In this document: piece by piece, positions 60,453-63,400 of the stretch
How positions within the stretch are numbered: the stretch's first letter is position 1
Layout of the letters: each line of letters starts with the position of its first letter
Source of the DNA: Fimbriosthenelais zetlandica
Lineage: Eukaryota
Assembly: GCA_977030845.1 (NCBI GenBank)
Contig: OZ365118.1
Location: forward strand, 19,158,001-19,222,000
Length of the DNA stretch: 64,000 bases
Reading direction: 5' to 3'
Program-made: the position numbers

Positions 60453-63400
60453 TGACAAAATGCTGTATAGAGATGGTATATTAGATATGGCCTGGCTTAT
60501 TGCCATGGGTAAAGATGTCCTATATTATAATGTTTGATCATTTACAGATTATTTCACTGAGGATAACTTTGCCGCGTGTTATAATAATGTGATATTATTT
60601 ACAGATCATCTGTGACTGGACGGATTATGAAAGTCGTATGAAGCGCCTGGTACAGATTGTCCAGGACCAGCTTGAGAGGAACCGCCTGCCTTCAGTCCAT
60701 CCCCACCATTCCATGCTCTATCCTCTGACTCATCAGATGCGCAAGGCTATCGCGGCTAGACATGCCAACCTCTGCCTTGAGAAGGTACGAATTCCAACCA
60801 TGCTGCTATACATGGATTAAATTAGCCGTTTCCCAAGGCCCTAAAATTGGTGGGCTGGATTATTACTGCTTAAAAATTATGATTTCTTTGATGATTTCTT
60901 GTCATGTTGATCAGGGAAAGATTAAATTTGTCAGGTAATTTGGGCCTGAATTATCAACTATTTTAAGTCTTGCTGTTTCCCTTCTAGATCAACGTGCTTC
61001 ACAAGCCAGCCTACGAGCATCCCACGGACGTGAAGGCCAGTGGTGGGCGTCTGAGGATCGGCTATGTGAGTTCAGACTTTGGTAACCACCCTACCTCTCA
61101 CCTCATGCAGAGCATCCCAGGCATGCATGACAAGACCAACGTGGAGGTATTCTGTTACTCCCTCAGCCCGGACGATGGTACAAACTTCCGTACAAAGATC
61201 AGCTCTGAGGCTGAACACTTCATCGATCTGTCACAAGTTCCGTGTAACGGGAAGGCTGCAGATCGTATACATGCTGATGGTATACATGTCCTAGTCAACA
61301 TGAACGGTTACACCAAGGGCGCCAGGAATGAACTGTTTGCCCTTAAACCAGCTCCAGTTCAGGTCTGTACAAGACATTCAATCATCAGAAACTCCACTAA
61401 AACCTTTCTTTGTATAAATAGTTTCATAACGAATTCATCAAAGATATTTATCAAGATATTTATGATATATTCCCAGTGAGCATACAATAATATGCATCTT
61501 TTTTCCCATATACAGGTGATGTGGCTGGGGTACCCCGGTACCAGCGGTGCACCCTTCATGGACTACATCATTACAGATACAGTCACTTCACCTATAGAGC
61601 TAGCTAGCCAGTACTCGGAGAAACTAGCCTACATGCCTCACACCTTCTTTGTTGGTGATCACAGTCATATGTTTAGTCACCTGAGACAGAAGGCCATCCT
61701 GGACCGTGGTGACAAGCTCCGTGATAATGTGGCTATACTCAACGGTATCAACCTCAAGGCTTCAATGAGTGCCTACATGGCCAAGGTTAGTATACAGCTA
61801 TATCATTTAGATCAATATACTATTACCCTTCTCCACCCAGCGCTGCTAACTGGTATTTCAAAGGTCTTACACTGTCTTGGTGAGAAGCATGTAAAACAAC
61901 CATTGCTCTAGTTCATTATGTGTTCAAGGGTCATAATGTGATATAATGACTATATTATGTCGTTTTCTTGTCTTACAGAACTTTGAGTTGACAGCTGGAA
62001 CTGGGCTGACAGATAAGCGTGGTAAATCACTAGATGTCAAGTTCCCAGTGATCACACCAGCTGTCAGTGGCGCGATATTTAATATGGTAGACAGTGGAGA
62101 GGGACAAATAGCTGTCAACGGAATAGTCATCCAGAACGGAATAACCACCAACCAGGTCAGTCAGACAGTACATGAATCTTGTATTTATATCTTCAATGAC
62201 TTCTTCAAAACCTCTGGCAAGAGGGAATGATTCTCAACATTTAAAACCACCTCAAAGTGCTATTAGCTGAGACGTTCTCCAGTTTGGACATGATCTACCT
62301 GAATTATTTGAATTTATGAAATTATTTTGAGGCTGCCTTAGCTCATAGCACAAAAGAAAAAAAAGAAAAAAACCTTTGGACATGGTTTGCTATTTTTGGG
62401 CCCCTGGTCCGAGTCATTTTGGAATTACAATGGAAGAGTACATGTTGAGAAAAGATCCTCTCTCGCAACAACTTAACTTTAAAGGAAAAACAATTCACTT
62501 GTTCTCCTCGTGTGTCTTTTGTAACAGGACCCGGGTTTCAAGGTAAGGTCAGGCTAGGAGTACAATATACTGGTAACGTTACCTTTAATTCACATGTAAA
62601 GGCAATATGGGAAGGTTGATATAGACAGGTTTTGAGGAGAGTAAATAGCCCAGATACAACTTATTCACACCAGCGCTTCAGTCAGCTAAGCCACATTGAT
62701 AATCACTTCATATTATAACTAAATTAAACCGGAATTAGATGTGAAAGTAAATCTCTGCCAAGCTCTGACTTTCTCGACCCTGTTCCTATGTGAACCTGTC
62801 TACATATACGAAGGGACTTGTATGAAACAAATGCATGGATTTTCATTGTAAAGTTTCTTTTCGGAGGCTTGATTCATCTGACTATATTCTATTACTTGAT
62901 GACGGCTTTGATGATAATTTTAGTTGAATATCGATTTGCTAACATTAAAAATGCATAGAAACAAACCTAGTAATACACACTGAGGTGTGGCAATGATTCT
63001 ATGACAGTAGACGCAGTTTAATATGAGAGAATCTTAATGTAGGGTTTACATCAGAAAGCATGAATGATGGAACGTGTGGTTGATGGAACGGTTCTTAGCA
63101 TGTTTCTTTGCTTTTCCTCGCTCCCCGTCTCCCACAATTCACATTCTCACCACTGATCTTTGTTCTTTCAGTTGAACAACAAAGCCGCTACCGGTGAAGA
63201 AGTACCACAGCAGATCATTGTAAGCACCAGAAGTCAGTACGGTTTAGATAATGATGCTGTGGTCTTCTGTAACTTTAATCAACTCTACAAGATCGACCCC
63301 ACCACGTTAGAAATGTGGGTGAACATTTTGAAAGCCGTGCCCAACTCGGTGCTTTGGTTGCTGCGCTTCCCCGCAGTAGGAGAACCCAACATTCTGCAGA

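What the first reader, a model, noticed from the sequence alone, without database searches (positions are those of the whole stretch)
62528..62542. Candidate 15-nt microexon inserting DPGFK at the OGT intervening-domain / C-catalytic junction
Seen: strong acceptor (about 25-nt pyrimidine-rich tract, CAG, CTTAAC branch-like motif near 62472), strong donor AAG|GTAAGG, a length divisible by 3, and the correct phase. It lies in the only long intron of the catalytic region (1016 nt). Established: in human OGT, NGLATTQ is joined directly to [10 protein letters not shown]. Inference: a regulated five-residue insert next to the catalytic lobe that could alter substrate or partner choice. I do not know such an isoform, but cannot search.
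Basis: partly seen in the sequence, partly recalled or inferred. Interest (0 to 1): 0.65.

Follow-up and report, generated by a model that had tools for sequence, protein, structure and literature searches.

The report
Candidate 15-base microexon in OGT
A 15-base stretch with strong splice signals lies in an unusually long intron of a non-human animal's O-GlcNAc transferase gene and could add five amino acids at the spot where zebrafish OGT takes an optional exon, but its use in mRNA could not be checked.

Summary
Window 62528-62542 (GACCCGGGTTTCAAG, DPGFK) is flanked by ...TGTAACAG| and |GTAAGG. It is in phase 0, has no stop, and lies in the 1016-nt intron between two OGT exons (61979-62155 and 63172-63459).

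Its acceptor and donor are the best-scoring ones in that intron. They score as well as or better than most of the gene's 15 real sites. A pair this strong is expected about 0.001-0.002 times per intron of this size.

No transcript data or related eukaryotic genomes were within reach, so inclusion is unproven. None of 80 non-vertebrate-like OGT proteins examined has an insert at this junction.

Teleost OGTs do have one. Zebrafish ogta "exon 19" (16 residues) enters at exactly the homologous TTQ|INNK junction, and the isoform is still active. The site therefore tolerates an optional exon, and the idea is not without precedent.

The signature of SRRM4/eMIC neural microexons (UGC next to the 3' splice site, weak acceptor) is absent.

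I put about 0.45 on a really spliced coding microexon, about 0.37 on an unused pseudo-exon, and about 0.1 on a non-coding decoy-type splice element. Interest is modest.

The parts
61979..62155 (+). OGT exon encoding the end of the intervening domain (ends ...GITTNQ); donor CAG|GTCAGT
   Evidence: tblastn with P0119; boundaries and phase 0; Pfam Glyco_transf_41 profile 292-339; aligns to 3pe3_A 454-494
62472..62477 (+). CTTAAC branch-point-like motif, A 51 nt upstream of the acceptor AG
   Evidence: match to the yUnAy consensus is recalled knowledge
62494..62498 (+). TTCAC, second branch-point-like motif, A 30 nt upstream of the AG
62499..62522 (+). pyrimidine-rich tract, 19 of 24 pyrimidines, interrupted by GTGTG
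   Evidence: AG-free zone of 41 nt before the acceptor
62526..62527 (+). candidate acceptor AG (AACAG|)
   Evidence: 8.4 bits, best acceptor in the intron, next best 2.0
62528..62542 (+). candidate 15-nt microexon GACCCGGGTTTCAAG = DPGFK, phase 0, no stop, 60% G+C against 37.6% for the intron
62543..62548 (+). candidate donor AAG|GTAAGG
   Evidence: 10.3 bits, best donor in the intron
62548..62553 (+). second, tandem donor AAG|GTCAGG; would give a 20-nt frame-shifting version
   Evidence: 9.4 bits, second best donor in the intron
62832..62837 (+). TGCATG motif downstream of the candidate; two further GCATG at 63058-63062 and 63098-63102
   Evidence: 3 in the intron, all downstream, against 0.875 per kb in the window
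63079..63114 (+). intronic block conserved with an unnamed related genomic ORF (P0003); contains one GCATG
   Evidence: 11 of 12 codons alike; the rest of the intron is not alignable at translation level
63099..63169 (+). 71-nt AG-free, pyrimidine-rich zone before the downstream exon
63172..63459 (+). OGT exon encoding the start of the C-terminal catalytic lobe ([10 protein letters not shown]...; catalytic Lys at its residue 40)
   Evidence: Pfam profile 340-435; aligns to 7yeh_B 813-908

Best explanation
The 15 bases are a real, spliced coding microexon of this animal's OGT gene, included in at least part of the mRNAs. Whether it is alternative or mostly included cannot be told; alternative is more likely.

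Shown:
- AG and GT borders, phase 0, length 15, no stop.
- The strongest acceptor and the strongest donor of the intron lie 15 nt apart.

Inferred:
- U2AF/U2 use the 24-nt pyrimidine tract and a branch point at 62476 or 62497.
- U1 pairs with AAG|GUAAGG.
- 15 nt is too short for exon definition, so each flanking intron (372 and 629 nt) is recognised across the intron, as proposed for nematode microexons.
- Inclusion adds Asp-Pro-Gly-Phe-Lys between the residues that align with human Q812 and I813 (1046-residue numbering). That is 21 residues after N791 of the peptide-binding pocket of the intervening domain, and 39 residues before the catalytic lysine.
- By analogy with zebrafish exon 19 at the same junction, the insert should leave catalysis intact and shift which protein substrates or partners are handled.
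For: - Both splice sites score within or above the range of the gene's 15 real sites and are the best in the intron.
- A pair of this strength is expected 0.0024 times per 1016 nt, or 0.0008 in frame and stop-free, from 14 and 5 pairs in 6 Mb of simulated intron.
- Only 1 other such pair exists in 128 kb of real sequence.
- Of 10 candidate internal exons found in the 15 OGT introns at a looser 5-bit threshold, this is the only one in frame and stop-free.
- The host intron is about five times the usual length for this gene. No snoRNA or other Rfam family, tRNA or in-window repeat accounts for the extra length.
- The exon is 60% G+C in a 37.6% intron.
- The junction tolerates changes of length. 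Fish isoforms carry +16 residues exactly here (13 proteins). [quoted passage not shown] One unnamed OGT lacks about 13 residues just before the junction.
- The intron position and phase are shared with vertebrates and with two unnamed genomic ORFs.
- Three GCATG motifs lie downstream of the exon, one of them in a conserved intronic block.
- The branch-like motif 51 nt upstream fits the extended branch-point distance reported for microexons (PMC12871342, passages).
Against: - No transcript evidence of any kind was within reach.
- 80 of 80 non-vertebrate-like OGT proteins examined join the two exons without an insert. These are 90%-identity cluster representatives, which can hide a 5-residue isoform.
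- The Pfam profile runs on without a break (positions 339|340), and without the insert the protein already has the canonical length at this point.
- No conservation could be shown. A search with an open frame spanning the exon found no counterpart. The one related genomic ORF is alignable only over the last ~130 nt of the intron.
- The weight matrix rests on 15 sites from the same gene.
- A cruder consensus test gives 6 pairs in the window against 1.8 expected by simulation.
- The donor 9-mer alone is not unusual.
- No UGC lies near the acceptor.
- There is no significant local RNA structure (z = -0.21).
- The finding was selected post hoc.
Confidence: 0.45

Rival explanations
1. Unused pseudo-exon. 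The acceptor-like and donor-like sites lie 15 nt apart by chance or by neutral drift in a long intron. The spliceosome ignores them because so short an exon cannot be defined, and the only mRNA joins 62155 to 63172.
For: - No insert in 80 of 80 non-vertebrate-like OGTs.
- Canonical length without it, and a contiguous Pfam profile.
- No conservation found.
- Exons under about 51 nt are spliced poorly unless helped (PMC8378409, passages), and the best-known helper motif, UGC, is missing.
- The prior for any one intron to hold a microexon is low (my estimate, of the order of 1-2%).
Against: - The expected number of such pairs is 0.0008-0.0024 for this intron.
- Both sites are the best in the intron by a wide margin for the acceptor.
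- It is in frame and stop-free, unlike the other 9 candidates in the gene's introns.
- Strong sites reached first by the polymerase in a genome that splices mostly short introns would be hard to ignore (inference).
Confidence: 0.37
2. Non-coding splicing element. The sites are recognised but rarely or never joined into stable mRNA. They could act as a decoy exon that holds the long intron back (intron detention). Or, through the tandem donor at 62547 (20 nt, frame-shifting), they could give an unproductive transcript. Either would feed back on OGT levels, as the decoy exon in human OGT intron 4 does.
For: - OGT is the textbook case of decoy-exon-controlled intron detention (PMC12017769, passages).
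- Decoys are found mostly in introns longer than 1 kb (PMC7373989, abstract in the listing).
- This is one of two outlier introns.
- There are two tandem donors.
- Read-through meets stops at 62228 (after the upstream exon) and 62555 (after the microexon).
- There is a conserved intronic block and a 71-nt AG-free zone before the next exon.
Against: - The human decoy is about 150 nt, has several weak sites, carries a stop and lies in the TPR part of the gene.
- Here the sites are strong, the exon is 15 nt, and the main version is in frame and stop-free.
- Nothing shows that this intron is retained.
Confidence: 0.1
3. Alternative last exon. The acceptor is used but the donor is not, so the transcript ends in the intron and encodes an OGT without the C-terminal catalytic lobe, ending ...DPGFKVRSG.
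For: Strong acceptor; stop at 62555-62557 right after the donor.
Against: - The donor is the strongest in the intron.
- I saw no AATAAA in the sequence read just downstream (by eye only).
- No truncated OGT of this shape is among the proteins seen.
Confidence: 0.04

Closest known systems
Zebrafish ogta exon 19 (teleost OGT cassette exon)
   Same: It is an optional in-frame exon in the same phase-0 intron, between ...TTQ and INNK.... The published deletion primer spans ATTQ|INNK (PMC2680843). 13 fish proteins carry +16 residues exactly there. The isoform with the exon is active on CKII peptide, less so than the form without, and raises O-GlcNAc in embryos. An earlier study, cited there, found it unable to modify p62.
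   Different: It is 48 nt / 16 residues, not 15 nt / 5. There is no sequence likeness to DPGFK. The fish insert looks like a partial repeat of the preceding strand. It is a vertebrate exon, and its inclusion is shown by cDNA, whereas here nothing is shown.
eMIC/SRRM4-dependent neural microexons
   Same: Size class (<=27 nt), in frame, an insert at a protein surface, and a distant branch-like motif (51 nt). Non-UGC neural microexons also exist: 51 of 231 human ones (PMC12871342).
   Different: The defining cis-code is UGC close to the 3' splice site, UCUC-rich tracts, long AG-free zones, and very weak acceptors (PMC8797185). Here there is no UGC within 139 nt, the acceptor is strong, and the AG-free zone is an ordinary 41 nt.
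Decoy exon of human OGT intron 4
   Same: Same gene family; splice-site pairs inside an unusually long intron; more than one donor.
   Different: Different intron (TPR region). It is about 150 nt, has weak sites, contains a stop and is rarely spliced in. The candidate is strong, tiny and open.
Microexons spliced by intron definition with PRP-40 (C. elegans)
   Same: An invertebrate microexon too short for exon definition, flanked by introns longer than the genome's norm (PMC8378409).
   Different: This is a mechanism proposed for another animal. No factor dependence can be read from the sequence.
Neuron-specific isoforms of chromatin regulators (LSD1 +4 residues; OGT listed among the RT-qPCR targets)
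   Same: A few residues inserted by a microexon retune a broadly expressed enzyme. That paper lists an 'OGT isoform' primer pair (PMC11864812).
   Different: The text I could read does not say where the mammalian OGT event lies. Figure 1 and Table S1 were not available, so no link to this junction can be claimed.

Membership tests
OGT (GT41) gene | TPR repeats followed by Glyco_transf_41 catalytic region with an intervening domain | tested here: met
   Pfam on single exons: TPR families on 60054-60410; Glyco_transf_41 on 60988-61362 (E 1e-75), 61516-61785, 61979-62155 (weak, E 0.0056, below the cut-off) and 63172-63459 (E 5e-49). tblastn with P0119 and P0008.
Coding cassette microexon | AG...GT borders, length <=27-30 nt, multiple of three, frame kept, no stop | tested here: met
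Coding cassette microexon | Splice sites of working strength | tested here: met
   Donor 10.3 bits (above 12 of 15 real donors), acceptor 8.4 bits (above 9 of 15). The pair is rare in real sequence and in simulation.
Coding cassette microexon | Junction reads or cDNA showing inclusion | not testable with these tools
   No transcript collection was available. No spliced protein of this species or of a close relative was found.
Coding cassette microexon | Conservation of the exon and flanks in related genomes | tested here: inconclusive
   The only route was proteins called on genomic contigs. The search with the frame spanning the exon gave 1 unrelated repeat protein. P0003 covers only the last 243 nt of the relative's intron. 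The genome scan returned 3 bacterial loci only.
eMIC/SRRM4 neural microexon | UGC motif close to the 3' splice site | tested here: not met
   The nearest TGC upstream is at 62388, 139 nt away.
eMIC/SRRM4 neural microexon | Very weak acceptor, long AG-free zone, UCUC-rich tract | tested here: not met
   The acceptor is the best in the intron. The AG-free zone is 41 nt, within the range 16-151 of the real exons. CTCTCTC occurs only at 62458-62464.
eMIC/SRRM4 neural microexon | Neural-specific inclusion | not testable with these tools
   no expression data
Teleost exon-19-type OGT cassette | Same intron and phase (between ...T(T/N)Q and (I/L)NNK) | tested here: met
Teleost exon-19-type OGT cassette | Homologous insert sequence (16 residues, I/L-x-x-x-E-V-V-V-S-G-x-x-x-L-Q type) | tested here: not met
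   DPGFK has neither the length nor the residues of the fish inserts. It would be an independent origin.
Decoy exon of a detained intron | Lies in a long retained intron; several weak sites; stop-containing; rarely included | tested here: inconclusive
   Met: long intron and tandem donors. Not met: weak sites and a stop, for the 15-nt form. Retention is not testable.
Recursive splice site | The acceptor is followed at once by a sequence that rebuilds a donor after joining to the upstream exon | tested here: not met
   The bases after the AG are GACCCG, not GT....

The most novel reading that the evidence does not exclude
The ancient phase-0 intron at the linker between the intervening domain and the C-terminal catalytic lobe is a recurrent site for optional coding exons. 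Teleosts put a 16-residue exon there, and this distant invertebrate independently put a 5-residue microexon there. Animals would thus retune OGT's choice of protein substrates or partners by changing the length of one linker close to the Int-D peptide-binding pocket.
Probability: 0.2. Interest if true: 0.55.

Novelty: new member of a known kind. Interest (0 to 1): 0.35.

Why it matters
OGT is the single enzyme that puts O-GlcNAc on thousands of proteins, and how it chooses among them is an open question. The intervening domain has recently been shown to bind short peptide motifs and to steer substrate choice (PMC12645433, PMC10589721).

If an optional five-residue insert really exists in the linker that follows this domain, it would give a natural, minimal variant for testing how that linker affects partner choice. 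Together with zebrafish exon 19 it would point to convergent use of one junction.

If the sites are not used, this is an ordinary pseudo-exon. A single RT-PCR would decide.

Tried and rejected
**Searches for spliced proteins that span the junction**
- Upstream exon, longer proteins: 21 candidates, none significant.
- Downstream exon, longer proteins: 1413 hits, 120 listed. The best is 93% (P0003, a genomic ORF that reads through the intron end); all others are <=84%. No transcript-derived protein of this species or of a near relative turned up.
- P0119 residues 735-850: 251 hits, 120 listed, no close relative.

**Conservation through ORFs called on genomic contigs**
- one hit, P0121, matching only query residues 4-23 eight times over. 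It is probably a score summed over repeats and has nothing to do with the exon.
- The search for related loci in genome contigs: 3 bacterial GT41 loci at 40-43%, no eukaryotic contig.

- Structure prediction on alignment A1 (fish isoform with the 16-residue insert, to see the fold at the junction) was not accepted three times. The statement that the junction is a surface linker therefore stays an inference.

**Alternative contents of the long intron, all rejected**
- Rfam families or snoRNA: none.
- tRNA: none.
- Repeats within the window: none.
- Local RNA structure: z = -0.21.
- Recursive splice site: rejected on sequence.

**Literature**
- 'ogt' + 'microexon' gave 12 papers, 11 listed. I opened two. 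One is a false hit on an e-mail address. The other lists OGT isoform primers without placing the event.
- In these searches and I found no paper on a microexon at this junction.
- Lazarus et al. 2011 (domain boundaries) is not held. PMC8586251 has no Int-D text.

- The joined step was left out.
- Supplementary files, including Table S1 of PMC11864812, could not be seen.
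Full report
**What the window is.** The + strand from about 55.3 kb to the end of the window carries an O-GlcNAc transferase (OGT) gene, cut off at its 3' end.
- Single exons give Pfam TPR families and Glyco_transf_41.
- tblastn with two full-length OGTs from the protein search (P0119, P0008) lays out 16 exon pieces. I fixed their GT-AG borders and phases.
- The 15 introns between them measure 180, 166, 2799, 129, 106, 111, 131, 135, 194, 203, 153, 193, 1016, 227 and 171 nt.
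- The window has no N.
- It is not human. The nearest protein (P0003, 93% over one exon) is unnamed.
- The rule about human contigs therefore did not come into play.

**The observation.**
- The upstream exon ends ...ACCAACCAG at 62155 (TTNQ).
- The candidate is 62528-62542, GACCCGGGTTTCAAG, reading DPGFK in phase 0.
- Before it come AACAG, a 24-nt tract with 19 pyrimidines, and CTTAAC at 62472-62477.
- After it comes GTAAGG.
- The downstream exon starts at 63172 ([10 protein letters not shown]).
- The host intron is the only long one in the catalytic part of the gene.
- Mammalian OGTs join ...NGLATTQ straight to [10 protein letters not shown].
- The two exon ends fall on neighbouring residues of solved human chains: 3pe3_A 494/495 and 7yeh_B 812/813.
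- In the 1046-residue numbering the junction is Q812|I813. Residue 40 of the downstream exon falls on chain index 852, which agrees with the catalytic K852 (K842 in the older numbering; PMC12779947, PMC4424335).

**Is it more than chance?** I scored sites with a weight matrix from the 15 OGT introns.
- The candidate donor (10.3 bits) beats 12 of 15 real donors scored leave-one-out. The candidate acceptor (8.4 bits) beats 9 of 15.
- In the intron they rank first among donors and first among acceptors. The next acceptor scores 2.0.
- Over the whole window, 16 of 3619 GT (+ strand) and 6 of 3644 (- strand) reach the donor score. 58 of 4256 AG (+) and 40 of 3927 (-) reach the acceptor score.
- Only two AG...GT pairs 3-30 nt apart reach both: this one and 24372-24378.
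- Simulated intron sequence (6 Mb, keeping trinucleotide make-up) gave 14 such pairs, 5 in frame and stop-free. That is 0.0024 and 0.0008 per 1016 nt, and 0.014 and 0.005 for all 5914 nt of OGT introns.
- With looser thresholds (5 bits, up to 300 nt) the 15 introns hold 10 candidate internal exons. This is the only one in frame without a stop.
- A cruder test that does not depend on my matrix ([CT]AG after >=11 of 16 pyrimidines, then AGGTRAG within 30 nt) finds 5 pairs on the + strand and 1 on the - strand, against 1.8 expected for both. Only this pair has a length divisible by three.
- Against over-reading: the matrix has 15 training sites, the 9-mer AAGGTAAGG alone is expected 0.86 times per window, and the finding was picked after the fact.

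**What else could fill a long intron?** Nothing turned up.
- No Rfam family at E<=1 in 55-64 kb, and none at gathering score in the window.
- No tRNA.
- No second copy of the intron in the window and no tandem array in it.
- No stable local RNA fold (z = -0.21).
- It is not a recursive splice site, because the bases after the AG are GACCCG.

**Evidence from relatives.** This is the weak point.
- No transcript or eukaryotic genome collection was on hand.
- The upstream exon found nothing among longer proteins.
- The downstream exon found 1413 OGTs, 120 listed. A third search with the junction region of P0119 found 251, 120 listed.
- I tabulated 175 stored proteins. I left out P0028 and P0058 as unnamed and vertebrate-like, and P0121 as unrelated.
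- 80 have non-vertebrate-like sequence around the junction, and all 80 lack an insert: 73 by the spacing count, and 7 more by gapless alignment.
- Of the 90 that the motif rule marked vertebrate-like, 71 are canonical and 19 have extra residues. The automatic count missed P0074, whose insert is visible. P0045, a carp model with +16 that the rule marked otherwise, brings the forms with extra residues to 20.
- The remaining 4 are P0027 (a pangolin model that lacks this part) and P0003, P0062 and P0023, which have no usable context.
- These are representatives of 90% clusters, so a 5-residue isoform could be hidden. The tool that lists cluster members was off.
- A search of 1.8 billion representatives with the open frame that spans the exon gave only a repeat protein matching elsewhere.
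- P0003 is an ORF called on a genomic contig of a relative. It reads through the last 243 nt of the same intron. It aligns with the window over about 130 nt before the exon, best in a 36-nt block (63079-63114, 11 of 12 codons) that holds a GCATG. Further upstream nothing aligns (score 24 against 26.9 for shuffles). It therefore says nothing about the microexon, which lies 630 nt before the exon.

13 fish OGTs carry 16 extra residues exactly between ...TTQ and INNK.
- This is zebrafish ogta exon 19. The primer used to delete it spans ATTQ|INNK.
- The isoform with the exon is active on CKII peptide (less than the form without) and raises O-GlcNAc in embryos. An earlier study found it inactive on p62 (PMC2680843, passages).
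- So the same phase-0 intron hosts an optional coding exon in another lineage, and the enzyme tolerates it.
- The linker also varies in length elsewhere: P0009 lacks about 13 residues just before it and P0061 lacks one.
- The fish insert is unrelated in sequence to DPGFK, so any link is convergence, not homology.

**Where the insert would sit.**
- The upstream exon encodes the stretch that aligns with the human Int-D pocket residues I787 and N791. These bind PxYx[I/L]-type motifs and steer the choice of protein substrates without changing activity on a peptide (PMC12645433, PMC10589721).
- N791 is 21 residues before the junction. The window has Asp at that position (my alignment).
- The catalytic lysine is 39 residues after the junction.
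- Whether the junction is a surface loop could not be tested, because structure prediction was not accepting jobs. I could not read the paper that sets the domain borders.

**How it would work.**
- A 15-nt exon cannot be bridged by exon definition. Small exons need strong sites or help, and in C. elegans they are thought to be spliced by intron definition with PRP-40 (PMC8378409).
- Here both sites are strong. The AG-free zone is 41 nt. Branch-like motifs lie 30 and 51 nt upstream, and long branch distances are typical of microexons (PMC12871342).
- The signature of eMIC/SRRM4 neural microexons is missing. That signature is UGC by the 3' splice site, UCUC tracts and a very weak acceptor (PMC8797185). 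Here the nearest TGC is 139 nt away.
- This speaks against the classic neural switch, although 51 of 231 human neural microexons also lack UGC.
- Three GCATG motifs lie downstream, against 0.875 per kb in the window. They are a weak hint of RBFOX-type control (role recalled, not tested).
- A second donor 5 nt further on (AAG|GTCAGG, 9.4 bits) would give a 20-nt frame-shifting form.

**Weighing.** I take a prior of 1-2% for a microexon in a given intron (my estimate).
- The likelihood ratio is about 30-100: roughly 0.08 for a real exon to score this well, against 0.0008-0.0024 by chance.
- I give small credit for the tolerant junction and for the G+C contrast (60% against 37.6%).
- I give small debit for the 80 of 80 insert-free invertebrate sequences.
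- This brings me to about 0.45 that the exon is really spliced in.
- The main rival is an unused pseudo-exon (0.37).
- A decoy-type element is possible (0.1). OGT is the classic decoy-exon gene (PMC12017769) and this is a long intron with tandem donors. But the human decoy is about 150 nt, weak, stop-containing and in another part of the gene.
- An alternative last exon is a remote fourth reading (0.04).

It remains unproven, and the neural part is not backed by the cis-motifs.
- If real, it is a new member of a known kind: an optional in-frame exon at the Int-D/C-Cat linker of OGT.
- One RT-PCR or a look at RNA-seq junctions would decide.

Noticed in passing
window 56109-58907: The second outlier intron of the OGT gene (2799 nt against 106-227 nt for 13 of 15) lies in the TPR-coding part. 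At 5-bit thresholds it holds six candidate internal exons, all with in-frame stops. Human OGT is regulated through a stop-containing decoy exon in a detained TPR-region intron. Whether this is the same intron was not checked.
   Followed up: partly
window 63079-63114 and 63099-63169: A 36-nt intronic block is conserved with the unnamed genomic ORF P0003 (11 of 12 codons) and contains GCATG. It is followed by a 71-nt AG-free, pyrimidine-rich zone before the exon at 63172. The rest of the intron is not alignable. This looks like a constrained splicing-control region.
   Followed up: partly
window 24372-24378 (+): Another microexon-like arrangement, TTTTTCCAG|CAGTCAG|GTAAGG (7 nt). It is the only other pair in the window that reaches both splice scores of the candidate. 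The gene around it was not identified.
   Followed up: no
window 62542/62547: Tandem donors AAG|GTAAG|GTCAGG. The second would turn the 15-nt exon into a 20-nt frame-shifting one.
   Followed up: partly
fish proteins P0057, P0059, P0093 and others (alignment A1): The 16-residue teleost exon-19 insert (e.g. IFTVEEVIVSGTVALQ) resembles the strand just before it (FTVSNGLATTQ) and also ends in Q. This suggests it arose by partial duplication of the end of the preceding exon.
   Followed up: no
window 46149-51262 (+): The upstream neighbour on the same strand has a weak TPR match and a weak PRMT_C (arginine methyltransferase) match (E 4e-5, below the cut-off). It has one very long open stretch (48449-50353, 634 codons) holding a 21-nt coding repeat in 8.8 copies (48953-49137).
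   Followed up: partly
window 8200-13423 and 22474-22629: Several tandem arrays with periods 20-73 nt, including a 57-nt unit x 6.9 copies at 12769-13173 and a G-rich 39-nt unit x 5.2 copies at 13224-13423. They produce long spurious open frames.
   Followed up: no
window 55873/56040: With the only phase-compatible GT-AG pair, the TPR exon junction reads ...QYNY|DLYC, where the homologues seen have ...QYNPDLYC. A Tyr stands in place of a conserved Pro.
   Followed up: no
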